Below, one piece after another: positions 1 through 62,335 of a stretch of 63,605 bases of DNA. Numbering within the stretch: the stretch's first letter is position 1; each line of letters starts with the position of its first letter. A program made the translations under genes and the position numbers. The notes under the pieces were generated by a model, which saw only the letters and a list, made by a program, of their open reading frames with translations, had not been told where the DNA came from and did no database searches. Where the stretch lies: positions 1-63,605 of the forward strand of contig CAZRMP010000001.1 of the NCBI GenBank assembly GCA_964601235.1. The letters are read 5' to 3'. Source of the DNA: an uncultured Ruminococcus sp. GTDB lineage: Bacteria > Bacillota > Clostridia > Oscillospirales > Acutalibacteraceae.

Positions 1-100
1 CGAGGGTCCACCCGTTCCCATACCGAACACGGAAGTTAAGCTCGCTTGCGCTGAAAATACTTGGCGGGAAGCTGCCCGGGAAAATAAGTAGATGCCAACA
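1..100 (+). rRNA. rrf: 5S ribosomal RNA, 3' portion (5' end lies outside the window)
   Basis: Contains the conserved 5S core CCCGTTCCCATACCGAACACGGAAGTTAAGC. Followed by a hairpin plus T-run at 104-134. Confidence 0.8.
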
Positions 101-25183: not shown

Positions 25184-27442
25184 ATGGATTTTCCCGTTAA
25201 TTTTATTGCCGCAGGTTATGATTATACAGATTTAGAGCATTTTGTACCCGCTCCCTTTTTCAGAAAGAGGTTTACGGCAGGGAAGACCGCCAAGGCGGAA
25301 ATTGTTATAGGCGCGGCGGGCTTTTATAAGCTTTTCCTTAACGGCAGGGATATAACAAAGGGCGAGCTTGCGCCCTATATCAGCAATCCCGACCATATCG
25401 TTTATTATGACAGCTACGATGTAACCGAGCTTGTGGCAGAGGGCGAAAATGTTGTGGCGGTACTGCTGGGAAACGGCTTTCAGAACAATGCGGGCGGTTA
25501 TGTGTGGGGCTTCGATAAAGCGCCGTGGAGAGGCGCTCCGAAATTCGCAATGAAGCTTACCCTTACCGCAGAGGACGAAACCGTGACCGAGTTTGAAAGC
25601 GATGAAAGCTTCAAGGTCTGCCCGTCACCCATATTGTTTGACGATTTCCGCTGCGGCGAGTATTATGACGCACGGCAAGAAAAGCCCGATTTCCATTCTG
25701 TCGGTTTTGACGACAGCGAGCTTAAAAACGCAATAAAGGTAAAGGCTCCCCGGGGCGAAAAAAGGCTCTGCGCCGCCGACCCCGTCCGTGTTTACGGCGA
25801 GATTAAGCCCGTATCGGTCACCCGCCATCTAAACGGCTGGCTTTACGATTTCGGGGAAAATAATTCGGGCGTTTGCAGGCTTTCGGTTGACGGCAAGGCG
25901 GGGCAGAAAATCACCCTTTATTACGGCGAATGGCTCAAGGACGGCGTCTTCACCCGCGAAAATATTGTCTTTGCTCATATGGGCGCGGAGCGAAACGAGT
26001 TTATTCAGAAAAGCGTTTACACCTGTAAGGACGGTAAGCAGACCCACACACCGAGCTTTATTTACAACGGCTTTCAGTATGTTTATGTTGAGGGAATAAC
26101 CGAGGAACAGGCGACTGCGGATTTGCTCACCTACCTTAAAATGAGCTCCCTTAGCACCCCCGCGGGCGGGTTCACCTGCTCGGACGAGGTTGTGAATAAA
26201 ATTGAGGAGGCAACCGTCCGCTCGGATATTTCAAACTTCAACTATTTCCCCACCGACTGCCCCCAGAGAGAGAAGAACGGCTGGACGGGGGACGCGTCCG
26301 ACTCGGCGGAGCAGCTGATTATAAATTTCCGCCCCGAAAAGTGCTTTAAGGAATGGCTGCACAATATTTATAAGGCGTTGGGGGATAAGGGCGACCTGCC
26401 CAGCGTTGTTCCCACCGTAACCTTCGGCTATAAGAATAACAACGGCCCCGCGTGGGACAATGTAATTGTAAATCTTCCGTACTATACATATGTATATAGG
26501 GGAGATAAGGAGATTTTAGAGGAGCTTTCCGTACCTCTTATGCGTTATCTCAATTATCTGTACGAAATGCGTACCGAAGAGGGCTTCATTACATTCGGTC
26601 TCGGCGACTGGGCGCCTCCGGGACGCGCGGTTTGGAATTTCCCCACCCCCCACGCGGTAACAGGCACAATTCTTTCCTATGATATTGCACAAAAAGCGGC
26701 GTTTTTCTATGATGTTCTCGGCAAAGAGCCGCAAAAGCAGTTTGCACTTTCACTGGCAGAGGGCTTTAAGACCGCCTTTAAAGAGCATCTGTATGATAAA
26801 GAAACAGGCGTTGTTTCGGGCGAGACACAGACAGGTCAGGCTATGGCGATATTCTACGGAATGTTGACTGAGGAAGAGGAGAAAAAAGCCTTTGATGTAT
26901 TGCTTAAATATATAGACGATGCGGACGGTCATTTTAACACCGGCGTTTTAGGCGGCAAGGCGATCTTCCGCGTGCTGGCGGAAAAGGGCAAGGTTGATTT
27001 GGCTTATAATATGATAACCCGTCCCGATTTCCCGTCCTACGGCAACTGGATTAAGCGGGGCGCCACCACCCTTTGGGAGGAGTTCCAGCCCGAGGGCGGC
27101 ACGGTTTCGTCCCTTAACCATCACTTCTGGGGCGATGTTTCCGCCTGGTTCTACACCTACCTTGCGGGAATTAGAATCAACCCCACCTTAAGGGATGTCA
27201 CAAATGTTGATGTTAAGCCGATGTTCCCCGAAAAGCTTGACAGCGTAAACGCTTATCAGGATACACCGAACGGCAGAATCGCGGTCGCTTGGAACCGCAC
27301 GGGTAATAACGCCGTTAAATTAAAGGTTGAAGCGGCAGAAAAACTCCACGGTAAAATTGCCGCCACCGACGGTTATAAATTTGCCGACGGCTTATCAGAA
27401 AAGCCCCTTGCAAGCGGTGAATACAATTTAATCAAAGCCTGA
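25184..27442 (+). CDS. Alpha-L-rhamnosidase, GH78
   Basis: RBS AAGGAG. The DCPQREKNGWTGDA motif and the ~750 aa architecture are typical of GH78. Confidence 0.8.
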   Translation: MDFPVNFIAAGYDYTDLEHFVPAPFFRKRFTAGKTAKAEIVIGAAGFYKLFLNGRDITKGELAPYISNPDHIVYYDSYDVTELVAEGENVVAVLLGNGFQNNAGGYVWGFDKAPWRGAPKFAMKLTLTAEDETVTEFESDESFKVCPSPILFDDFRCGEYYDARQEKPDFHSVGFDDSELKNAIKVKAPRGEKRLCAADPVRVYGEIKPVSVTRHLNGWLYDFGENNSGVCRLSVDGKAGQKITLYYGEWLKDGVFTRENIVFAHMGAERNEFIQKSVYTCKDGKQTHTPSFIYNGFQYVYVEGITEEQATADLLTYLKMSSLSTPAGGFTCSDEVVNKIEEATVRSDISNFNYFPTDCPQREKNGWTGDASDSAEQLIINFRPEKCFKEWLHNIYKALGDKGDLPSVVPTVTFGYKNNNGPAWDNVIVNLPYYTYVYRGDKEILEELSVPLMRYLNYLYEMRTEEGFITFGLGDWAPPGRAVWNFPTPHAVTGTILSYDIAQKAAFFYDVLGKEPQKQFALSLAEGFKTAFKEHLYDKETGVVSGETQTGQAMAIFYGMLTEEEEKKAFDVLLKYIDDADGHFNTGVLGGKAIFRVLAEKGKVDLAYNMITRPDFPSYGNWIKRGATTLWEEFQPEGGTVSSLNHHFWGDVSAWFYTYLAGIRINPTLRDVTNVDVKPMFPEKLDSVNAYQDTPNGRIAVAWNRTGNNAVKLKVEAAEKLHGKIAATDGYKFADGLSEKPLASGEYNLIKA

Positions 27443-27616
27443 CCGAATCCCTCCGTCAGCCTACGGCTGCCACCTCCCTTTAGGCAAGGGAGGCTCACCC
27501 ACATAAAGGCCCCCTTGCCTTGTAGCGACTTTATCTAAAAATAGGCCCCCTTGCCTAAAGGGGGCTGTCGAGCGGAGCGAGACTGGGGGATACGGTCTAC
27601 CGTCTAACATCTAAAA
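27443..27616 (+). repeat. Mosaic hairpin repeat cluster A
   Basis: Modules GAATCCCTCC, CCTCCCTTTAGGCAAGGGAGG, GGCCCCCTTGCCTAAAGGGGGCT, a variable hairpin, TGGGGGATA, and TCTACCG TCTAACA TCTAAAA heptads. All recur in clusters B to E. Confidence 0.9.
27511..27558 (+). repeat. 48-nt direct repeat, left copy (upstream of the GH37-like gene)
   Basis: Identical to 28854-28901. Confidence 0.95.
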
Positions 27617-27628
27617 GGAGAAAAAACT

Positions 27629-28846
27629 ATGTCAAAGGTAAGCGAATTTATAGAAAAATATTTCTGCGATACGGTAAAACACAAAACTGAGGATGAGGGC
27701 CGCATTATGGGTCTGCCTTATCCCTACACCACCCCCTGCGCAAACGAGCTGTTTATAGAATTCTTTTATTGGGATACATACTTTACAAATGTGGGTCTTA
27801 TAGCGGCGGGCGATGTGGAACAGGCGAAGAACAATGCCGACAATATGGCATACATAATTAATAAATACGGCTATATGCTCAACGCCAACACCACAAATAT
27901 GCTTGAGAATCAACAAAGCCAGCCCCCATTTTATTTCAAGATGGTGGAGGATGTTTTTGATGTAACGGGTGATAAGGACTGGCTTAAGGAAAGCTATAAA
28001 GCCTTAACCACCGAGTACAAATTCTGGCAGACCGAAAGAATAGCACCTAACGGGCTTAATATCTACGGACCCCATAAGGGCTACAGTGAGGACAAGATCG
28101 CGAGAATGTCCCATTATTTCACACAGCGCTTTAAGGGCTACGAGTTCAAGGACGAGGAGGATAGGGTAAACGCCGCCCATACTATTTTCACAATGTGCGA
28201 GAGCGGCTGGGACTGCAACTCCCGTTTCGAGAACGCGGGCGAGTTTTATAACCCCGTTGACCTTAATTCTCTGCTTTACGGCCTTGAAAAGGCGATGGCA
28301 AAGTTCGCTTCTGTGCTTGAAAATGGCGAAGAAGACCTTTGGAACGAGCGTGCGGCACAGCGCAAGGCAAAAATGCTTGAATTAATGTATGATAAGGAAA
28401 GCGGAGTATTGCTTGATTATAATTATAAGGAGCAAAAATTAAGCCCCGTAGTTTCCTTTGCCTCAATTTACCCGCTGTTTGTGGGAATGCTTGATTCTGC
28501 CGAAAAGGAAATGGAGCTGTTAAGGGATAAGCTGATGTTAAAATACGGCGTAAGCCCCTGCGTTCCCGGCGAGTATAATTACGCGCTCCAGTGGGATTAC
28601 CCCAATATCTGGCCGCCCCTTCAGTACATAGCGTATGTGGCATGTAAAAACTACGGCTATGACGATTTAGCCAAAAAGGTAGCCGATACCTATATAATGC
28701 TCTTGGACGAGAGCTTCGAGAAGACCGGCAACCTTTGGGAAAAGTACAACGGACTTGACGGAACTGTCGCCAACGAGGACTACAACGCCCCGAGAATGAT
28801 GGGCTGGACCGCAGGAATGTATATGTATTTCAGCCGATTGAAATAA
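27629..28846 (+). CDS. GH37-like trehalase family protein (cytoplasmic)
   Basis: RBS AAGGAG. FYWDTYF and QWDYPNIWPPLQ resemble the two trehalase signatures. No signal peptide. Confidence 0.7.
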   Translation: MSKVSEFIEKYFCDTVKHKTEDEGRIMGLPYPYTTPCANELFIEFFYWDTYFTNVGLIAAGDVEQAKNNADNMAYIINKYGYMLNANTTNMLENQQSQPPFYFKMVEDVFDVTGDKDWLKESYKALTTEYKFWQTERIAPNGLNIYGPHKGYSEDKIARMSHYFTQRFKGYEFKDEEDRVNAAHTIFTMCESGWDCNSRFENAGEFYNPVDLNSLLYGLEKAMAKFASVLENGEEDLWNERAAQRKAKMLELMYDKESGVLLDYNYKEQKLSPVVSFASIYPLFVGMLDSAEKEMELLRDKLMLKYGVSPCVPGEYNYALQWDYPNIWPPLQYIAYVACKNYGYDDLAKKVADTYIMLLDESFEKTGNLWEKYNGLDGTVANEDYNAPRMMGWTAGMYMYFSRLK

Positions 28847-28849
28847 GCA

Positions 28850-29167
28850 AATGCCCCTTGCCTTGTAGCGACTTTATCTAAAAATAGGCCCCCTTGCCTA
28901 ATTTAAAGCGCCCCTTGCCTAAAGGGGAGAGGGCCGACCGTCAGGTTGGCGAGGGGATTCCTGTGACTGGGGGATACAAATTAGCAGAACCCCAATTCGA
29001 ATCCCACCACCGCAAGCGGTCCCCCTCCCTTTAGACAAGGGAGGCTCACCCACATAAAGGCCCCCTTGCCTTGCGGGTGCTTACATTTGAAGGCCCCCTT
29101 GCCTAAAGGGGGCTGGCACGGCGAAGCCGTGACTGGGGGATATAATCTACCGACTAACATCTAAACC
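28850..29167 (+). repeat. Mosaic hairpin repeat cluster B
   Basis: Same modules as cluster A in a different order. Includes the 48-nt repeat (28854-28901) and the 126-bp repeat copy 1 (29025-29150). Confidence 0.9.
29025..29150 (+). repeat. 126-bp direct repeat, copy 1 (upstream of the DUF559 gene)
   Basis: 124 of 126 nt identical to 29586-29711. Confidence 0.95.
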
Positions 29168-29237
29168 GAGGTGATACATTACGGAACGCAAGCATAATCC
29201 AAAGCTTACCGATAACGCAAGAGCCCTGCGGAAAAAT

Positions 29238-29543
29238 ATGACAAAGGAAGAGCGGCATTTGTGGTATGACTTTCTGCGTTCCTATCCGGTACGATTTCTG
29301 CGGCAAAAGGTAATAGATAACTACATTGCAGATTTCTACTGTCACCAAGCCCGCCTGATTGTGGAGCTTGACGGTTCACAGCATTACGAGGAAAAAGGTT
29401 TGCTTAAGGATAAAATCCGAACAGAAAAAATCGAAAGCAGAAATTTAACGGTAATTCGCATACCTAATAATGAGGTTAATAATAATTTCAGAGGGGTTTG
29501 CGAGTGTATTGATTGGGTGGTTAAAGAATCCCTCCACCGATAG
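29238..29543 (+). CDS. DUF559 (Vsr-like/PD-(D/E)XK) endonuclease domain protein
   Basis: MTKEERHLWYDFLR...FLRQKVIDNYIADFYC...LIVELDGSQH is typical of DUF559. The conserved ARALRKN helix is encoded in-frame upstream of the first ATG with no canonical start codon. Confidence 0.75.
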   Translation: MTKEERHLWYDFLRSYPVRFLRQKVIDNYIADFYCHQARLIVELDGSQHYEEKGLLKDKIRTEKIESRNLTVIRIPNNEVNNNFRGVCECIDWVVKESLHR

Positions 29544-29935
29544 AATCCCTCCGCCGATAGAATCCCTCCGCCTCGTTCCTCGGCACCTCCCTTTAGGCAA
29601 GGGAGGCTCACCCACATAAAGGCCCCCTTGCCTTGCGGGTGCTTACATTTGAAGGCCCCCTTGCCTAAAGGGGGCTGGCACGGCGAAGCCGTGACTGGGG
29701 GATACAATCTATTATTTATTATCTATTATCTATTATTTATTATCTGAGGGAGATACGGTCTACAGTCTAACCTTACCGAATCCCTCCGCCTCGTTCCTCG
29801 GCACCTCCCTTTAGACAAGGGAGGCAATTCAAACCAAAGCGCCCCTTGCCTAAAGGGGAGAGGGCCGACCGTCAGGTTGGCGAGGGGATTCCCGTGAGAC
29901 AAAGGAGGATAATTCCGCATTCCGAATTGAATCTA
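29526..29935 (+). repeat. Mosaic hairpin repeat cluster C
   Basis: Starts with 17-mer tandem units GAATCCCTCCRCCGATA (2.5 copies). Contains the 126-bp repeat copy 2 (29586-29711), TYTATTA heptads (29708-29742) and a 114-bp unit with inverted termini (29778-29891). Confidence 0.9.
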
Positions 29936-30028
29936 TATATAGTATACAAATTATTTAAACCCAATAATTAAATTTGTGCATAATAATAAAATCAGCGTTT
30001 TTGTTCTACTTTTTCGACTATTTTTTTC

Positions 30029-30057
30029 TTGAAAAAAGGTTATCAAAAATATATAAT
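30029..30057 (+). promoter_or_regulatory. Sigma-A type promoter of the dockerin/GLUG protein gene
   Basis: TTGAAA, 17 nt, TATAAT. Lies within a ~230-bp block duplicated at 35163-35390. Confidence 0.65.
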
Positions 30058-30141
30058 CTAAATGTATCATTGCACGATAGCACTTGTGTAAGGGCACAAG
30101 CCGTATTTTGCAAAAAAATCAATTTCAGAAAGGTGATTGAT

Positions 30142-32331
30142 ATGAAAATTAAAAGCATTTCAAAACATGTGTTAGCGATTGTTTTATCACTCGCTGTTTT
30201 GGCATCTGCTATGATGTTAAATACATTCTCGGTATTTGCAGAAGGGGAAGAACCGGCTGCACTTGATATCTGGGACGGCACATTAGCAACAATTCCCGAC
30301 GATGGCGCTACCCACCCCTATGCCGGCGGTAACGGTACAGCGGCAGAGCCTTATCTCATTTCCACCCCCGAACAGTTCGCTTATATGCTCATTAAAGCCA
30401 ACTGGAATACTACTAATTCTATCCCCGGCGGCGCACATTATAAATTGTTAAATGATATTTATCTTAATAATGTGTCAGCAGGTGAGTGGTATAATTCTGC
30501 TAATATCAATGCGTGGAGAGGACTTGCCGATAACGATGACGAGTGCAGTGGCCGTCTGTTCTATGGACATATTCACGGCAACGGCAAAACGGTTTACGGC
30601 TTGTATATCGATGGTGATTATTATTATAGCGGCTTGATTTACCGTTTTGGTGACGGCGCAAGTGTTGAGGATTTAAGAATCTCAAAGGCTTATGTTAATG
30701 CTACAAGCTGGAGCGGTTCTCACGGAGTATTAGTCGGACATTCCTGGGGCAATACAACAGTAAAGAATGTCGTTATCGATGATACCGTAAAGGCCAAAGC
30801 AGCTAATGGCGGTGCAGCAGTAATAGGCGGAATACAGGGTGATATAACAGTACCCGTTACTGTTGAAAATTGCTATGTTGGCGCTAATATAACTTCAGGA
30901 AACAATAACCCCCGTGCATTTCTTGGAGCTTATTATGACAATACAAAGGGTTTGGACTATACTACAACCAGCCATCTTATTATTAAAAATTCCTATTATG
31001 TAGGCGCTAATCAGTTAGTTGTTGAAAAACCAGACGGAACGCAGCCTGTTAAATTTGAGAACTGCTATACTACAAGTGAAAAACTATCAAATGTGCGCAA
31101 TACCGGTACAGGTGTAACCAAACGCACTTTGGCTGAGATGACAGGCGCAAAGGCAAAGGTATATATGAACGCTTTTGATTTCAACAATGTTTGGTATACA
31201 GAAGCCGGCAAAACACCTCAGCTTCGCTTTGGCGATATTGAAAAAGTAAACGCCACCAAATTGTGGAATGTATGGGACGGCACAGTACCCGAAACAGTTA
31301 CCTATGACGGCGGAAACGGACAGTCTGCGGCTACTGCTTACGAGATTTCCACCGCTGAACAGTTAGCTTATCTTGTTAGCAAGGGTTCAAGCGGATATTA
31401 TAAGCTGACTGATGATATTTATCTTAATGATGTATCGGATTCTGAATGGTATAATAATACCCCAAATGAGTGGTCTGCTGTTGTCGGTGCTAACACCAAT
31501 TTCTGGGGAACTGTTGACGGCAACGGTCATACGATCTACGGTTTGTATATTAATAGCAATCTTTACTTTACCGGTTTAATTCCCCGTTTTGTTGGCGGTA
31601 CTATTTCTAACCTAAGAATCTCAAAATCTTATGTTAAAAATACAGGATACGATGGCGGTCACGGCGTGTTAGTCGGTCAGATTTGGCAAAATAGAAATGT
31701 AAGAAATTGTGTTATAGATGAAACTGTTGAATTTATCACAGCCGGTTACGGTTCACCGTTAATAGGTGGGCTTAATGACGATGGTGCCAATCACACAGGA
31801 ACTGTCAATGTTGAGGGCTGCTATGTTGCCGCTAAAATGTCAACAACACATGCTGACACTAAACCCGCAGCATTTTTCGGTAAACCGATCATTGCCAAGG
31901 GTATAACTTACAGCTCAACAGCCAGCCATCTTGTTATTAAAAACTCTTACTATTCAGGTGAATATGCTCTTGCTGCTGAAAAAGCAGATGGCCCCGTTAT
32001 ATATGACGGTTGCTATACCACCAAGGTGTACGATACAGAAAACGGAGAAAAAGCTCCCGCAGGCGTAACAGATTCTTCAAACTTAGAGGCAATGAAAGCT
32101 GCAGGCTTGAGCGCTGTATTAGCCAAATTCTCCAAGCTCGGTAATGCAAATGGCGACGCTAATGCTGCAGTTGATGTTTGCGACCTTGTAACACTTAAGA
32201 AGCTTGAGCTTGGTATGGGTGTTGATATTAACATCTATGCTTCTGATGTTAATAACGACAGAGAGATCAACGGTATGGACTTTACCGCTCTTAAGAAGTA
32301 TATTTTGAATGACTTATCGGTTTTTCAGTAG
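30142..32331 (+). CDS. Secreted protein with two GLUG-type repeat modules and a C-terminal type-I dockerin
   Basis: Start moved to ATG 30142 (RBS AAAGGTG, signal peptide MKIKSISKHVLAIVLSLAVLASA). Two modules match PY.I....QLAY......YKL..DIYLN.....F.G...GNG.T.YGLY. The C-terminus has two Ca-binding dockerin segments (NANGDANAAVDVCDL, DVNNDREINGMDFTALKKYIL). Confidence 0.8.
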   Translation: MKIKSISKHVLAIVLSLAVLASAMMLNTFSVFAEGEEPAALDIWDGTLATIPDDGATHPYAGGNGTAAEPYLISTPEQFAYMLIKANWNTTNSIPGGAHYKLLNDIYLNNVSAGEWYNSANINAWRGLADNDDECSGRLFYGHIHGNGKTVYGLYIDGDYYYSGLIYRFGDGASVEDLRISKAYVNATSWSGSHGVLVGHSWGNTTVKNVVIDDTVKAKAANGGAAVIGGIQGDITVPVTVENCYVGANITSGNNNPRAFLGAYYDNTKGLDYTTTSHLIIKNSYYVGANQLVVEKPDGTQPVKFENCYTTSEKLSNVRNTGTGVTKRTLAEMTGAKAKVYMNAFDFNNVWYTEAGKTPQLRFGDIEKVNATKLWNVWDGTVPETVTYDGGNGQSAATAYEISTAEQLAYLVSKGSSGYYKLTDDIYLNDVSDSEWYNNTPNEWSAVVGANTNFWGTVDGNGHTIYGLYINSNLYFTGLIPRFVGGTISNLRISKSYVKNTGYDGGHGVLVGQIWQNRNVRNCVIDETVEFITAGYGSPLIGGLNDDGANHTGTVNVEGCYVAAKMSTTHADTKPAAFFGKPIIAKGITYSSTASHLVIKNSYYSGEYALAAEKADGPVIYDGCYTTKVYDTENGEKAPAGVTDSSNLEAMKAAGLSAVLAKFSKLGNANGDANAAVDVCDLVTLKKLELGMGVDINIYASDVNNDREINGMDFTALKKYILNDLSVFQ
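30271..31182 (+). repeat. 912-bp segment shared with the giant surface-protein gene (copy 1)
   Basis: Roughly 90% nt identity by eye to 51586-52497. Positions 30658-30850 show 192 of 193 identical. Confidence 0.9.
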
Positions 32332-34371: not shown

Positions 34372-34455
<84 letters not shown>

Positions 34456-34462
<7 letters not shown>

Positions 34463-35190
34463 CCGCCTCGTTCCTCGGCACCTCCCTTTAGACAAGGGAG
34501 GCTAAGGGCAAGGGAGGCTAAAGAAACAAGGCCCCGCAAGCCTCACGGGGGCTGTCACCGATAGGTGACTGGGGGATATAATCTATTATTTATTATCTAT
34601 TATTTATTATTTATTATCTGAGGGAGATACGGTCTAAAGTCTAACCTTACCGAATCCCTCCGACTTCGTTACGCTCAGCCACCTCCCGTAAGGCTTGGTA
34701 GGCTAAAATGAACCACCGTAGGGGAGGGTCTCCGTGCCCTCCCGATGGTTTTTTTGCGACTTAACGGGAGGGCACAGAGACCCTCCCCTACAGTATGAGT
34801 AAATTGACCGCCCGTGACAGGGGAAAGACAAAAATCGTCCCGTCTAACATCTAAAAAACGGACAGTCGGGGACGCCTGTCCCTACAAGGGCAAATTGAAT
34901 ATGCGTAGGGGCTGGCATCCTTGACAGCCCGAATCTAGTATCTACCGTCTAACATCTAGTGTCTAAAATTCGAATCCCTCCGCCTCGTTCCTCGGCACCT
35001 CCCGTAAGGCTTGGGAGGCAAATTACACAAAGTAGGGCGGGGCTTGCTCCCGCAGTCTGTTGTCTGACATCTGCCGTCTGCTATCTGGATTAACGGAACG
35101 ACACTTAAGGTCGTTCCCTACGGCGGTTAATTGGGTTTTCGTAGGGAATGACCTATGTGTCATTCCGCATTCCGCATTAAAATCTATATA
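34456..35190. repeat. Mosaic hairpin repeat cluster D
   Basis: Contains the modules of clusters A to C plus a 27-bp inverted repeat (34718-34744 / 34765-34791), TCTANNN x5 (34934-34968), NNNTCTG x5 (35053-35087) and several 7-8 bp hairpins. Confidence 0.9.
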
Positions 35191-35279
35191 TAGTGTATAA
35201 AAAGTTAAAACGCAACAACTGAATTTGTGCAAAATGATAAAAACAGCGCTTTTGTTCTACTTTTATGGCTCTTTTTTTC

Positions 35280-35308
35280 TTGAAAGCTTGTTAGAAAAAA
35301 TATATAAT
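35280..35308 (+). promoter_or_regulatory. Sigma-A type promoter of the 20-kb GH16/ABC/surface-protein operon
   Basis: TTGAAA, 17 nt, TATAAT. Duplicate of the 30029-30057 promoter, including the downstream ATTGCACGATA box (35320-35330). Confidence 0.65.
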
Positions 35309-35387
35309 TAGTGTGCGAGATTGCACGATACTTATTGTGTAAAATAACAAACTAAATTTTCAAAAAAATATTAGAAAGGTGTTTGGT

Positions 35388-62202: not shown

Positions 62203-62335
62203 TTAAAAAGCCTCCCTTGTGTAAAGGGAGGGGAACCAACCGTTAGGTTGGTGGAGGGATTGCAATTCGCTATAAAAACAATCCCCCAGTCAGCTACGCT
62301 GACAGCCCCCTTTGCACAAGGGGGCCTTTATTATT
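62203..62335. repeat. Mosaic hairpin repeat cluster E (modules in inverted orientation and with compensatory changes)
   Basis: CCTCCCTTgtgtAAAGGGAGG, ACCAACCgttaGGTTGGT, GGAGGGATTG. On the minus strand: GGCCCCCTTgtgcAAAGGGGGCT, GTCAGCgtaGCTGAC, TGGGGGATTG. Confidence 0.85.

What the first reader, a model, noticed from the sequence alone, without database searches (positions are those of the whole stretch)
27443..29935. Dense mosaic of hairpin-forming repeat modules filling every intergenic gap of a 2.5-kb stretch
Between GH78 and the dockerin gene, all non-coding DNA is built from a small vocabulary of modules:
- GAATCCCTCCGCC.
- CCTCCCTTTAGRCAAGGGAGG, an 8-bp-stem hairpin.
- GGCCCCCTTGCCTAAAGGGGGCT, another hairpin.
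- A short variable hairpin followed by TGGGGGATA.
- TCTACCG/TCTAACA/TCTAAAA heptads.
The modules are shuffled between copies, which makes them mosaic, BIME-like. One 114-bp unit (29778-29891) has imperfect inverted termini GAATCCCTCCGCC...GGCGAGGGGATTC (11 of 13), which is MITE-like. The same vocabulary recurs at 34.4-35.2 kb and 62.2 kb. I do not recognise this as a named repeat family.
Basis: seen in the sequence. Interest (0 to 1): 0.65.

Follow-up and report, generated by a model that had tools for sequence, protein, structure and literature searches.

The report
Triplex-type repeats flanking a DUF559 nuclease
The "five modules" are one 47-52-base repeat (two hairpins plus a strand that could fold back as a DNA triple helix, a relative of E. 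coli's unexplained BoxC repeats), and it brackets a small DUF559 nuclease gene here and in other phyla, which points to the missing enzyme for this repeat class.

Summary
Fifteen copies of one 47-52-nt "arm" lie in five intergenic clusters and nowhere else in the 63.6-kb window.

**Anatomy.** Each arm has three parts:
- a C-rich head, ATCCCNNN;
- a variable hairpin, P1;
- a conserved hairpin, P2 (CCTCCCTT-loop-AAGGGAGG).

The heptads are a separate companion.

**Structure.** P1 and P2 show strong compensatory change and almost no G-U pairs. The head is the mirror image of P2. On the G-rich strand, 194 of 244 distinct arms give 8/8 purine-motif base triplets. That places them in the known class of intrastrand-triplex repeats (BoxC/PIT/TM_ECO; Holder 2015), with a new architecture in which a hairpin replaces the 3-nt second loop.

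**Apparently new.** The ORF inside the region (29178/29238-29543) is a DUF559, Vsr-like nuclease bracketed by inverted arms.
- 65 of 72 related DUF559 genes are bracketed the same way.
- 8 of 9 distant DUF559 loci (Deinococcus, Synechocystis, E. coli ycjD next to the original BoxC, and others) carry triplex motifs, mostly beside the gene.
- E. coli genomes with ycjD carry about 21 such motifs; those without carry about 3.

**Best reading.** A REPIN/RAYT-like system with a different nuclease (confidence about 0.5). Activity of the nuclease on the arms is untested.

The parts
27445..27493 (+). Arm (head GAATCCCTCC, P1 CAGCC-TAC-GGCTG, P2 CCTCCCTT-TAGGC-AAGGGAGG). Left half of a tail-to-tail pair that fills the GH78/trehalase gap.
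   Evidence: Covariance-model hit, 58 bits; sequence.
27545..27593 (-). Arm, CCA subtype, reverse orientation. On the + strand it reads P2', P1', then head' CTGGGGGATAC.
   Evidence: 55.8 bits; triplex-pattern hit 27545-27591.
27596..27616 (+). Heptads TCTACCG TCTAACA TCTAAAA, running straight into the trehalase ribosome-binding site.
28851..28901 (+). Partial arm pieces (truncated P2 halves). The 48 nt at 28854-28901 are 100% identical to 27511-27558.
   Evidence: the repeat finder family D6.
28909..28960 (-). Arm, CTC subtype (98% identical to 29840-29891).
   Evidence: 25.7 bits; family D4.
28965..28982 (+). Solitary head' (GACTGGGGGATAC) without hairpins.
28999..29044 (+). Arm, ACC subtype.
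   Evidence: 33.9 bits.
29093..29143 (-). Arm, CCA subtype, head pointing at the DUF559 gene. This is the upstream terminal repeat of the gene unit. P1 has a GAA loop on the + strand.
   Evidence: 57.1 bits; same position as in 70 of 77 related DUF559 loci.
29146..29166 (+). Heptads TCTACCG ACTAACA TCTAAAC, inserted between head' and the DUF559 ORF.
29178..29543 (+). DUF559 (Vsr-like PD-(D/E)xK) nuclease ORF. The frame is open from ATT at 29178, where relatives have ATG/GTG. The first ATG is at 29238. The last codons, K-E-S-L-H-R-stop, are encoded by an arm head.
   Evidence: Pfam PF04480, E = 9.5e-24; PDB 3hrl, E = 1.5e-10; fold match to 3hrl and I-Bth0305I; homologues up to 93% identical.
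29525..29572 (+). 17-nt tandem repeat AGAATCCCTCCRCCGAT x2.8 (repeated arm heads). The first copy holds the DUF559 stop codon.
   Evidence: Tandem Repeats Finder, score 89.
29560..29606 (+). Arm, TCC subtype, head pointing at the DUF559 gene. This is the downstream terminal repeat of the gene unit.
   Evidence: 51.7 bits.
29655..29705 (-). Arm, CCA subtype (near-copy of 29093-29143).
   Evidence: family D2, 126 nt at 98%.
29707..29777 (+). Heptad array (ATCTATT x5.6, then degenerate units) between two arm heads.
29778..29824 (+).
   Evidence: 50.5 bits.
29840..29891 (-). Arm, right half of the 114-nt unit.
   Evidence: 25.7 bits.
34372..34458 (+). Heptad array (GGAATTC / GGAATTA / GAGATTA) running into an arm head.
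34455..34501 (+). Arm.
   Evidence: 50.5 bits.
34531..34579 (-). Arm with a variant P2.
   Evidence: 35.7 bits.
34652..34702 (+). Degenerate arm.
   Evidence: 15.2 bits, E = 0.006.
34972..35018 (+). Arm with a variant P2 loop.
   Evidence: 30.8 bits.
62211..62262 (-). Arm of the TACAC-loop lineage; left half of a head-to-head dimer with a 20-nt gap between the ATCCC cores.
62279..62325 (+). Arm of the TGCAC-loop lineage; right half of the same dimer. Best-scoring copy in the window.
   Evidence: 70 bits.

Best explanation
**What it is.** All the modules except the heptads are one 47-52-nt repeat, the 'arm'. An arm has three parts:
- an unpaired C-rich head, (G/T)(A/T)ATCCC plus 3 nt;
- a variable hairpin, P1;
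- a conserved polypyrimidine/polypurine hairpin, P2.

Read on the G-rich strand, the order is Y-stem, loop, R-stem, P1, then a G-rich strand that mirrors the R-stem. This is the layout of an intrastrand purine-motif DNA triplex. It is the class known in E. coli as BoxC / PIT / TM_ECO, except that a hairpin replaces the usual 3-nt second loop.

**Organisation.** Arms occur as inverted pairs of unlike subtypes and as arrays. Two arms with heads pointing inward bracket a 120-aa DUF559 (Vsr-like PD-(D/E)xK) nuclease gene. The upstream head supplies the gene's Shine-Dalgarno sequence (GGAGG). The downstream head encodes its last residues.

**How it most likely works (inferred).** The system behaves like REPIN/RAYT with a different enzyme.
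1. A low-copy DUF559 nuclease recognises its own lineage's arm when the arm is folded in single-stranded or extruded DNA. The specificity would come from the P2 loop plus the head-on-P2 triplex.
2. The nuclease cuts there.
3. The host repairs or copies the break using other arms as templates.
4. This duplicates, shuffles and relocates arms between genes, which would give the mosaic and the rapid turnover.

**Shown:** the anatomy, the covariation, the dispersal, the physical gene-repeat association across phyla, the lineage-specific loops, and the insertion polymorphism.

**Inferred:** triplex folding of these arms, any nuclease activity on them, and the copying mechanism.
For: **Structure**
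- On 135 distinct arms, P1 and P2 are 96.3% paired against 81.4% in shuffles. Eleven of 14 pairs change on both sides, with 290 compensatory cells (0/500 shuffles). Slid controls collapse. Only 2 G-U cells occur in 1814, which argues for DNA rather than RNA.
- There are 115 different P1 stems. Of 212 P1 loops, 96 are T-N-C, which is the GNA triloop on the G-rich strand.

**Triplex signature**
- Head positions 2-8 mirror the 5' strand of P2.
- A parallel head/P2 relation holds: UA 69, CG 60, other 6. The antiparallel Watson-Crick alternative does worse than shuffles.
- On the G-rich strand, 194 of 244 distinct arms give 8/8 allowed triplets (G.GC, A.AT, T.AT, and T.CG at inversions), mean 7.63. 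Register shifts give 2.5-4.4. Shuffled heads give 6.73, 0/2000.
- The E. coli motif of the same layout forms a stable triplex as a single strand by CD and NMR (PMC4666352).

**Link to the gene**
- Twelve of the 120 arm-bearing stretches from species genomes carry a DUF559 gene 57-89% identical to the window's. Wherever both flanks were inspected, it sits exactly between inward-facing heads.
- Starting from the protein instead, 65 of 72 metagenome DUF559 loci have both arms, 6 have one and 1 has none.
- The P2 loop type (TAGGC, TACAC/TGCAC, TGAC) matches between the two flanking arms and follows the protein lineage. Only 3 of 62 distinct copies have internal stop codons.

**Generality**
- Nine DUF559 loci at 35-45% identity from other phyla hold 19 triplex motifs in 12.6 kb, against 0.025 expected.
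- They bracket the gene in Deinococcus proteolyticus (56-nt inverted repeats, 95% complementary), D. psychrotolerans and Synechocystis.
- The 3' end of E. coli ycjD runs into a TM_ECO copy. Further copies follow in the ycjD-fabI gap: one more by the strict pattern and a third, weaker one by eye. This gap is upstream of fabI (= envM), where BoxC was first described.

**Copy-number pattern**
- ycjD is single-copy and present in 3378 of 5426 complete E. coli genomes.
- In an evenly spread sample, 37 genomes with ycjD have 12-29 motif places (median about 21). The 22 chromosomes without it have 1-20 (median about 3).
- Published counts agree: B2 strains 1-2, A/B1 strains 19-30. ycjD is reported in phylogroups A, B1 and C.
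- In the metagenome that best matches the window, DUF559 words are at 1-3 times single-copy depth and arm words at 5-30 times.

**Mobility and turnover**
- A relative with 71%-identical trehalase has 11 nt between GH78 and trehalase, and no arms.
- A relative with 90%-identical trehalase has different repeats in that gap. Where the window has arms plus DUF559, it has only heptads.

**The enzyme**
- The fold matches 3hrl (TM 0.80) and the homing endonuclease I-Bth0305I (TM 0.78), with Vsr more distant.
- The D...E-x-D...H positions are invariant in 27 homologues.
Against: - No biochemical result links any DUF559 protein to these repeats.
- A PD-(D/E)xK hydrolase cannot rejoin DNA, so the copying step has no demonstrated chemistry.
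- Holder et al. saw no triplex in duplex DNA or by in vivo DMS footprinting, and found no mobile element near TM_ECO.
- Motifs persist without the gene. O157:H7 has 11-12, and some ycjD-less strains have 16-20.
- The E. coli correlation is confounded by phylogeny. My phylogroup assignments for the named strains come from memory.
- Picosynechococcus PCC 7002 DUF559 has no motif nearby. In Neisseria gonorrhoeae the motifs lie more than 200 nt away.
- The orientation of the motif relative to the gene differs between lineages.
- E. coli ycjD has the motif on one side only.
- Many of the 80 metagenome loci come from a few human-gut species, so they are not independent.
- The covariation alignment was fitted to the model.
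- The window's own copy lacks the usual start codon.
Confidence: 0.5

Rival explanations
1. **Passive structure-prone repeats.** The arms arise and rearrange through replication stalling or slippage at non-B DNA (the Holder 2015 model), with no dedicated enzyme. DUF559 would be a host nuclease that processes such structures, or a small gene that tends to be retained next to them.
For: - TM_ECO loci are hypervariable, and no mobile element was found near them.
- Motifs persist in ycjD-less E. coli.
- Arm content differs between 90%-identical relatives.
- Truncated modules and a 17-nt head tandem look like slippage products.
Against: - This does not explain why the gene is bracketed base-for-base by inward heads in 65 of 72 loci.
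- It does not explain why loop types follow protein lineages.
- It does not explain why the same pairing recurs in Deinococcus, cyanobacteria and E. coli.
- It does not explain why near-identical arms (98-100%) sit kilobases apart.
Confidence: 0.22
2. **Free-standing homing endonuclease.** DUF559 is a selfish gene that cuts the junction of head-to-head arm dimers and is copied into them by repair. The arms would be its landing pads, and something else would spread them.
For: - The closest solved folds include the homing endonuclease I-Bth0305I.
- Gene-less dimers with abutting heads exist (GGAGGGATAT|ATCCC..., 2-nt gap, L079). They look like empty sites.
- Proteins 92% identical to the window's sit in a different gene context.
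Against: - Spacers of gene-less dimers are 2-79 nt long and unrelated to each other, so there is no conserved empty target.
- The gene is low-copy although dimers are many.
- ycjD sits at a fixed locus in 3378 genomes.
Confidence: 0.13
3. **RNA-level elements.** The arms act in transcripts as intercistronic stabilisers, terminators or translational controls.
For: - The arms lie in a 186-nt intercistronic gap, directly upstream of a ribosome-binding site.
- About 40% of arms elsewhere are followed by TTT.
- Arm sequences occur in bovine metatranscriptome contigs at depth 200-900, against 2-20 for coding sequence.
Against: - G-U pairs are almost absent.
- The best-fitting triplex is the purine motif, which is reported not to form in RNA.
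- The arms show no bias towards convergent or co-directional gene gaps: 57/17/13 against a background of 406/105/95.
- DNA runs show a similar depth excess, so the RNA depth may only reflect copy number.
- PIT elements showed no promoter or terminator activity.
- The window's own arms lack T-tracts.
Confidence: 0.08
4. **Ordinary MITEs or REPs.** A DDE or HUH (RAYT/IS200) transposase elsewhere in the genome mobilises the arms.
For: Terminal inverted repeats, small size, dispersal and BIME-like arrays. A second, GTAG-tagged REP-like family coexists in the same gaps.
Against: - I saw no target-site duplication.
- The head is ATCCC, not GTAG or CGTC.
- Every gene I identified between inverted arms was DUF559. 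Head-to-head gaps are 229 nt or less, about 350 nt, or 420 nt (one case not inspected).
- There are no Rfam or literature matches.
Confidence: 0.04

Closest known systems
BoxC / PIT elements / TM_ECO intrastrand triplex motifs (Bergler 1992; Hoyne & Maher 2000; Holder et al. 2015, PMC4666352)
   Same: - Same order of parts: C-rich stem, loop, G-rich stem, then a G-rich mirror strand that obeys purine-motif triplets.
- Strictly intergenic, with tens of copies per genome.
- Inverted pairs always combine two subtypes.
- Loci are hypervariable between close strains.
- No promoter or terminator role is known.
   Different: - The consensus differs: CCTCCCTT / AAGGGAGG / GGAGGGAT against CCCTCNCCC / GGGNGAGGG / GGGNGAGGG.
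- The second 'loop' is 15-37 nt and holds a covarying hairpin, so the published search (loops 1-6 nt) could not have found these arms.
- The hosts are Oscillospirales (Bacillota), not Proteobacteria or Cyanobacteria.
- The published work reports no associated gene. Here a DUF559 nuclease gene is bracketed by the motif.
REP / REPIN with RAYT (REPtrons) and TIRtrons (Nunvar 2010; Bertels & Rainey; Di Nocera 2013, PMC3733652)
   Same: - Short hairpin units with an unpaired conserved tag at one end.
- Inverted dimers and arrays.
- A low-copy nuclease gene flanked by inverted copies.
- Repeat lineages that follow enzyme lineages.
- Repeats far outnumber the gene.
   Different: - The enzyme is a PD-(D/E)xK hydrolase (DUF559), not an HUH tyrosine transposase.
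- The tag is ATCCC..., not GTAG or CGTC.
- The tag covaries with the hairpin stem as a mirror repeat.
BIMEs of E. coli
   Same: Mosaic clusters of repeats in alternating orientation, with a small set of linkers, filling intergenic and intercistronic gaps.
   Different: There is no sequence relation. BIMEs are built from GTAG-type REPs.
I-Bth0305I (EDxHD / Vsr-like homing endonucleases; PDB 3r3p) and Vsr
   Same: The same small Vsr-like nuclease fold (TM 0.77-0.78 to 3r3p). This is a precedent for the fold acting in a selfish element.
   Different: The gene is free-standing, not in an intron or intein. Sequence similarity is marginal (E = 0.11). No T/G-mismatch or Dcm context is evident.
MITEs (for example Correia, ERIC, RUP)
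   Same: Size of 100-160 bp for an arm pair, terminal inverted repeats, intergenic dispersal.
   Different: No target-site duplication was seen. There is no parent IS with a transposase. The gene-less dimers are not internal deletions of the gene unit.

Membership tests
Intrastrand triplex repeats (BoxC/PIT/TM) | Three blocks in the order Y-stem, R-stem, G-rich third strand, obeying purine-motif triplets. | tested here: met
   194 of 244 distinct arms score 8/8 (mean 7.63). Register, orientation and shuffle controls all fail. Twelve of the 15 window arms are found by a pattern finder, with no other hit in 127 kb.
Intrastrand triplex repeats (BoxC/PIT/TM) | Short loops (1-6 nt; second loop 3 nt in TM_ECO) and the consensus CCCTCNCCC..GGGNGAGGG..GGGNGAGGG. 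| tested here: not met
   The second loop is 15-21 nt in the window, and up to about 37 nt elsewhere, and contains hairpin P1. The stem sequences also differ (pattern).
Intrastrand triplex repeats (BoxC/PIT/TM) | Intergenic, multicopy, inverted pairs of two subtypes, hypervariable loci. | tested here: met
   (nearly all head-to-head pairs combine unlike subtypes).
Intrastrand triplex repeats (BoxC/PIT/TM) | The single strand folds into a triplex in vitro. | not testable with these tools
   Shown only for TM_ECO. ViennaRNA does not model triplexes.
REP/REPIN-RAYT (REPtron) | Repeats flank a RAYT (HUH Y1 transposase) gene. | tested here: not met
   The bracketed gene is DUF559 in the window, in 12 species-genome loci and in 65 of 72 metagenome loci.
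REP/REPIN-RAYT (REPtron) | GTAG or CGTC tag at one end of the palindrome. | tested here: not met
   The tag is (G/T)(A/T)ATCCC. A separate GTAG-tagged family does coexist in the same gaps.
REP/REPIN-RAYT (REPtron) | Inverted dimers; enzyme gene at about one copy per genome; repeats in large excess. | tested here: inconclusive
   Dimers are present. ycjD has 1 copy per genome. For the source organism there is only metagenome depth, 1-3x against 5-30x. One MAG contig has two DUF559 lineages 2 kb apart.
MITE | Terminal inverted repeats plus a target-site duplication; derived from an autonomous IS by internal deletion. | tested here: not met
   Inverted repeats are present. No duplication was seen at the flanks inspected. 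Dimer spacers are unrelated to DUF559.
DUF559 / Vsr-like PD-(D/E)xK nuclease (the ORF) | Pfam PF04480 above its cut-off; Vsr-like fold; conserved D...E-x-D...H positions. | tested here: met
   83.8 bits against a cut-off of 20.6. 3hrl matches by sequence and by fold, TM 0.80. D52, E63, D65 and H69 are invariant in 27 homologues. The model has only moderate confidence (pLDDT 75).
Homing endonuclease gene | The gene interrupts its own recognition site; empty and filled alleles coexist. | tested here: inconclusive
   Filled and empty head-to-head dimers exist, but not at orthologous sites, and the spacers are not conserved. Cleavage could not be tested.
Intrinsic terminator | GC-rich hairpin followed by a T-tract. 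| tested here: inconclusive
   About 40% of distinct arms have TTT within 2 nt after P2. The window's arms do not.

The most novel reading that the evidence does not exclude
DUF559 proteins, including E. coli YcjD, are the cognate nucleases of intrastrand-triplex repeats (BoxC/PIT/TM and these arms) across bacterial phyla. This would be a second, independently evolved REPIN/RAYT-like partnership. In it, a Vsr-fold hydrolase reads a DNA structure (hairpin plus fold-back triplex) whose specificity is set by DNA-DNA triplets. The partnership would drive the local genome instability already reported at these repeats.
Probability: 0.42. Interest if true: 0.9.

Novelty: new variant of a known kind. 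Interest (0 to 1): 0.8.

Why it matters
BoxC/PIT/TM repeats have been known since 1992. They were shown to fold as triplexes in vitro and were tied to genome instability, but no enzyme, origin or function has been assigned to them. DUF559 is a very large family of unknown function: 8000 of 8000 scored candidates matched at E <= 1e-10 here, and it includes E. coli YcjD.

A consistent physical pairing of the two, in several phyla, turns both open questions into one bench experiment: does YcjD, or a gut-bacterial DUF559, bind or cut its folded repeat?

It also matters in three practical ways:
- It extends the triplex-repeat class to abundant gut Clostridia, with an architecture that existing searches cannot detect.
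- It explains why short-read assemblies of these organisms break at these gaps.
- It explains why spurious small ORFs are called across them.

Tried and rejected
**Searches that found nothing**
- Rfam at gathering and at E <= 1: only 5S rRNA, a tRNA and two chance hits.
- Literal sequence search in papers: nothing relevant.
- DUF559, RAYT/REPIN and Clostridia literature: no paper links DUF559 to repeats.
- Exact-protein lookup of the window's DUF559: not on record.

**Readings tested and dropped**
- Watson-Crick pairing of the head with P2: worse than shuffles.
- Direct-repeat reading of the head: 3-46% agreement at the informative positions, against 58-99% for the mirror reading.
- Gene-less dimers as deletion derivatives of the gene unit: the spacers are unrelated.
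- Bias of arms towards 3' ends of genes: none.
- Target-site duplications at arm-pair or gene-unit flanks: none seen.

**Inconclusive checks**
- RNA evidence: arms are abundant in metatranscriptome contigs, but no more so than in DNA runs.
- Phage or plasmid carriage of close relatives: only two unverified faecal 'phage' contigs at 46-53% identity, and plasmid hits all below 60%.
- A gene bracketed by the GTAG-type repeats: none in this sample.

Full report
**1. The observation**

The three core motifs are far above chance:

| Motif | Sites in window | Expected from shuffles |
|---|---|---|
| GAATCCCTCCGCC (up to 2 mismatches) | 12 | 1.25 |
| CCCTTGCCTAAAGGG | 12 | 0.16 |
| GACTGGGGGATA | 10 | 3.7 |

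The repeat finder recovers the 126-nt pair (29024-29149 and 29586-29711, 98% identical), a 62-nt pair (98%) and a 48-nt pair (100%). It also finds a 55-nt imperfect inverted repeat that spans the whole GH78/trehalase gap.

The genes around the repeats are as follows:
- GH78 rhamnosidase, 25184-27442;
- a trehalase-family hydrolase, 27629-28846;
- a DUF559 protein, 29238-29543;
- a dockerin protein, 30142-32331;
- a GDSL/GH16 protein, a GH16 protein and a solute-binding protein further on.

**2. One repeat, not five modules**

I lined up copies from the window with copies from elsewhere. The vocabulary collapses to a single 47-52-nt 'arm':
- a head, (G/T)(A/T)ATCCC plus three variable bases;
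- a variable hairpin, P1;
- 1-3 linker bases;
- a conserved hairpin, P2 (C[C/T]CCCTT, a loop of about 5 nt, AAGGG[A/G]G).

|---|---|
| GAATCCCTCCGCC | The head |
| CCTCCCTTTAGRCAAGGGAGG | P2 |
| GGCCCCCTTGCCTAAAGGGGGCT | P2 of a second subtype, read backwards |
| 'Variable hairpin + TGGGGGATA' | P1 plus the head of that second subtype, read backwards |

I built a covariance model from 30 arms and scored every position of the window with it. It finds 15 full arms in five intergenic clusters and nothing elsewhere. Arms, partial arms and heptads cover 78% of the non-coding bases of the flagged stretch. The gaps fold significantly better than shuffles as single-stranded DNA. Arms alternate in orientation.

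**3. Dispersal**

- The window comes from an uncultured gut bacterium.
- Names attached to the closest DUF559 proteins point to Acutalibacteraceae.
All were Oscillospirales MAGs from ruminant, rabbit, bird and human guts.
- In the metagenomes that hold this locus, contigs end at the repeats. Repeat words have 5-200 times the depth of the flanking genes. DUF559 words have 1-3 times that depth.
- So both 'would refute' conditions about uniqueness fail. The repeats are dispersed.

**4. Structure is conserved, and at the DNA level**

- On 135 distinct arms aligned to the model, 96.3% of cells pair, against 81.4% in shuffles.
- Eleven of 14 pairs change on both sides, with 290 compensatory cells. 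Sliding the partners destroys the signal.
- This alignment was fitted to the model, which favours the structure. Even so, 115 different P1 stems in 212 parsed arms make the same point independently.
- Only two G-U cells occur in 1814. That is unusual for a functional RNA. It is expected if both DNA strands must keep the hairpin.
- P1 loops are T-N-C in 96 of 212 arms, which is the GNA triloop on the opposite, G-rich strand. Most of the rest are T-N-N-C. From my own knowledge, GNA triloops closed by C-G are the classic extra-stable DNA mini-hairpins.

**5. The head mirrors P2**

- The three variable head bases covary with the outer P2 pairs: TCC with CCT...AGG, CCA with GCC...GGC, TCA with GCT...AGC, CCC with CCC...GGG, and CCT with TCC...GGA.
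- The relation is a mirror repeat. It is not a direct repeat and not an inverted repeat.
- A parallel head/P2-3'-strand 'pairing' gives UA 69, CG 60, other 6 at the most informative column. The antiparallel Watson-Crick alternative does worse than every shuffle.
- On the G-rich strand the eight head bases fit the purine-motif triplet code (G.GC, A.AT, T.AT, with T.CG where the duplex purine run is interrupted).
- The fit is 8/8 in 194 of 244 distinct arms (mean 7.63). Shifted registers give 2.5-4.4, the wrong orientation gives 3.7, and heads shuffled among arms give 6.73 (0/2000).
- The geometry also fits. The third strand starts at the foot of P2 and runs antiparallel to the purine strand, with P1 as the connecting loop.
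- Actual triplex folding of these arms is an inference.

**6. This class is already known**

A literature search led to Holder et al. 2015 (PMC4666352). The history and findings, as that paper gives them:
- BoxC was first seen upstream of envM (= fabI) by Bergler in 1992.
- It was renamed 'potential intrastrand triplex' (PIT) elements by Hoyne and Maher in 2000, and TM_ECO by Holder.
- Its pattern is CCCTCNCCC N3-6 GGGNGAGGG N3 GGGNGAGGG.
- MG1655 has 23 copies, all intergenic.
- Inverted pairs always combine type A with type B.
- As a single strand it forms a stable purine-motif triplex (CD, NMR). No triplex was detected in duplex DNA or by in vivo footprinting.
- It has no promoter or terminator activity.
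- It is associated with local hypervariability between strains.
- The authors found no link to mobile elements and named no enzyme. The words ycjD and endonuclease do not occur in the paper.

The window's arms therefore share the layout and the behaviour of this class. The shared behaviour includes heterotypic inverted pairs and fast local turnover. They differ in consensus, in host phylum, and in having a whole covarying hairpin in place of the 3-nt second loop.

**7. The gene inside the region**

*The ORF.* The ORF at 29238-29543 is a DUF559 domain. Its frame is open from 29178, and relatives start there with M-(D/E)-R-K-H-N.

*From arms to the gene.* In the 120 arm-bearing stretches, tblastn finds 12 DUF559 genes 57-89% identical to the window's. 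Wherever both flanks were inspected, the gene sits exactly between two arms whose heads point inward:
- The upstream head' (GGAGGGAT) lies 2-8 nt before the start codon and supplies the Shine-Dalgarno sequence.
- The downstream head (GAATCCCTC) encodes the last residues (E/Q-S-L).
- The stop codon falls in the P1 loop or the P2 loop.
- The window has the same layout: arm 29093-29143, the gene, then arm 29560-29606. A heptad array has been inserted before the ORF, and ATT stands in place of ATG.

*From the gene to arms.* This is the reciprocal test.
- 558 of 600 candidate metagenome stretches encode relatives, and the best 80 were kept.
- Of the 72 with both flanks readable, 65 have both arms, 6 have one and 1 has none.
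- Many of these loci come from a few human-gut species, so the effective number is smaller. Several distinct lineages still show the pattern.

*Lineage matching.* The P2 loop (TAGGC, TACAC/TGCAC, TGAC and others) is the same on both sides of a gene and follows the protein lineage. Only 3 of 62 distinct copies carry internal stops.

*Pair spacing.* In the species-genome sample plus the window, head-to-head pairs dominate: 39, against 20 tail-to-tail and 6 tandem. Their gaps are 2-79 nt without a gene, or about 350 nt with DUF559 inside. Spacers of the gene-less dimers are unrelated to the gene.

**8. The protein**

- By sequence it matches the DUF559 structure 3hrl (E = 1.5e-10) and, weakly, the homing endonuclease I-Bth0305I (E = 0.11).
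- An AlphaFold model (pLDDT 75) matches 3hrl (TM 0.80), I-Bth0305I (TM 0.78) and, more distantly, Vsr.
- A published survey places Vsr, DUF559 and I-Bth0305I in one PD-(D/E)xK clade.
- The acidic and histidine positions are invariant in 27 homologues.

**9. The pairing is not confined to this order**

I fetched distant DUF559 genes (35-45% identical) from plasmid and chromosome records. I scanned them with a simple purine-motif finder. In the window, that finder hits only arms.

| Organism | What the finder shows (unless noted) |
|---|---|
| Deinococcus proteolyticus | Gene flanked by 56-nt inverted repeats, 95% complementary. Each holds a hairpin, a C-rich mirror strand and CCTCCCCC-GCAA-GGGGGGAGG. 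|
| D. psychrotolerans | Bracketing motifs. |
| Synechocystis sp. B12 | Bracketing motifs. |
| Sphingomonas | Bracketing motifs. |
| Azospirillum | Motifs upstream of the gene. |
| Sinorhizobium | Motifs 37 nt and more downstream of the gene. |
| Neisseria gonorrhoeae | Motifs more than 200 nt from the gene. |
| Picosynechococcus PCC 7002 | No motif. |
| E. coli K-12 ycjD | The gene's last codons run into a TM_ECO copy. A second strict copy, and a third weaker one seen by eye, follow in the 367-nt gap before fabI, upstream of the gene (envM) where BoxC was first described. |

In total there are 19 motifs in 12.6 kb, against 0.025 expected from dinucleotide shuffles.

**10. E. coli as a natural experiment**

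- ycjD is single-copy and present in 3378 of 5426 complete genomes.
- A recent paper reports it in phylogroups A, B1 and C, plus ST69 and ST182. Elsewhere it is replaced by eefRABCD.
- Holder's tables give these TM_ECO counts. The phylogroup labels are from my own knowledge.

| Strains | Phylogroup | TM_ECO copies |
|---|---|---|
| CFT073, UTI89, IHE3034, S88, APEC O1, LF82 | B2 | 1-2 |
| MG1655, HS, BL21, 55989, IAI1, E24377A, W | A / B1 | 19-30 |
| O157:H7, 042, UMN026, IAI39 | D / E / F | 6-15 |

- I also ran a combined query, ycjD plus its adjoining motif, and listed records at even steps down the ranking. The 37 genomes with ycjD have 12-29 matching places (median about 21). The 22 chromosomes without it have 1-20 (median about 3).
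- This fits an enzyme that maintains or multiplies the repeat. It is confounded by phylogeny, and repeats clearly persist without the gene.

**11. Turnover at this very locus**

- A relative with 71%-identical trehalase has GH78, 11 nt, trehalase, 92 nt, GH16, then the solute-binding protein. It has no arms, no DUF559 and no dockerin gene.
- A relative with 90%-identical trehalase has a different filling in the GH78/trehalase gap: a partial arm plus GTAG-type hairpins. Where the window has about 1 kb of arms plus DUF559, it has only an 11-unit heptad array, directly before the same dockerin-gene promoter.

**12. How it most likely works**

*Shown:*
- a structured DNA repeat of the triplex class;
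- its tight, lineage-matched bracketing of a Vsr-fold nuclease gene;
- many gene-less copies, mostly as inverted heterotypic dimers;
- rapid gain and loss.

*Inferred:* the nuclease recognises the folded arm on single-stranded or extruded DNA and cuts it. The host then repairs the break by copying from other arms, which spreads and shuffles them. This is the logic of REPIN/RAYT with a hydrolase in place of an HUH transposase.

*The weakest link* is the copying step, because a PD-(D/E)xK enzyme cannot rejoin DNA.

*Rivals:*
- passive slippage at non-B DNA, with DUF559 as a processing or repair nuclease;
- a free-standing homing endonuclease that uses arm dimers as targets;
- an RNA-level role. 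This one is disfavoured by the lack of G-U pairs, by the purine-motif fit, by the absence of orientation bias, and by RNA depths no higher than DNA depths.

**13. Verdict**

The finding is real and more interesting than it was framed. The repeats themselves are a new variant of a known kind (BoxC/PIT/TM). Their systematic association with DUF559 genes across phyla appears to be unreported in the literature I could search. It gives a direct, cheap test for the function of both.

Noticed in passing
window 34718-34743, 34766-34791, 34860-34885, 34905-34930, 35032-35053, 35095-35121, 35141-35166: A second repeat family shares the same gaps: GTAG followed by a 6-9-bp hairpin (REP-like, GTAG-tagged), in inverted pairs. 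There are 116 such elements in 46 of 201 fetched loci, against 15 in a reversed-sequence control. Head-to-head pairs share the spacer AAGGGYAAATTGAATATGY in the window and in L214. No bracketed gene was seen.
   Followed up: partly
window 27596-27616, 29146-29166, 29707-29777, 34372-34458, 34577-34619, 34940-34966, 35161-35178; L214 1982-2060: Period-7 arrays (TCTNNNN, GGAATTC, ATCTATT, CATTCCG) abut the arm heads. Across the species-genome loci, 20 of 60 period-7 arrays lie within 150 nt of an arm, against 27 of 403 arrays of other periods. In the close relative L214, a heptad array is all that occupies the site where the window has arms plus DUF559. Their origin is unexplained; they could be footprints, slippage products or an independent microsatellite.
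   Followed up: partly
window 29936-30141 and 35180-35378: The roughly 200-nt regions upstream of the dockerin gene and of the GH16 gene are paralogous. They share the -35/-10 elements (TTGAAA ... TATAAT) and the leader, so these two glycoside-hydrolase-locus genes share a duplicated promoter cassette.
   Followed up: no
window 29525-29572: A 17-nt tandem repeat AGAATCCCTCCRCCGAT x2.8 consists of repeated arm heads. The first copy provides the last codons and the stop codon of DUF559.
   Followed up: yes
window 29178-29240: The window's DUF559 copy has ATT ACG where relatives have ATG or GTG. It also has its own GAGGTGA ribosome-binding site after an inserted heptad array. It may start at ATT, start at M21 (29238), or be decaying.
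   Followed up: partly
L064 1661-2072 and 3708-4150: One MAG contig carries two DUF559 genes, 58% identical and 2 kb apart. Each is bracketed by arms of its own P2-loop type (TACAC and TAGGC). The window also holds arms of both loop types (27-35 kb against 62.2 kb), so two lineages can coexist in one genome.
   Followed up: partly
L220 (E. coli K-12 1351040-1351406) and L215 931-1176: The ycjD-fabI intergenic gap holds BoxC/TM_ECO copies: two by a strict pattern and a third, weaker one by eye. The first overlaps the ycjD stop codon. ycjD is present in 3378 of 5426 complete E. coli genomes, always single-copy. Genomes with it carry about 7 times more TM_ECO-like places than genomes without it.
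   Followed up: yes
window 1-100 and 344-427: The window begins with the 3' part of a 5S rRNA gene, followed by a tRNA gene.
   Followed up: no
L219 (MT835749.1) 409-459: An unverified 'bacteriophage' contig from human faeces carries a DUF559 gene 53% identical to the window's, with an Oscillospirales-type arm upstream. It may be a mis-binned bacterial fragment, or phage carriage of the unit.
   Followed up: no
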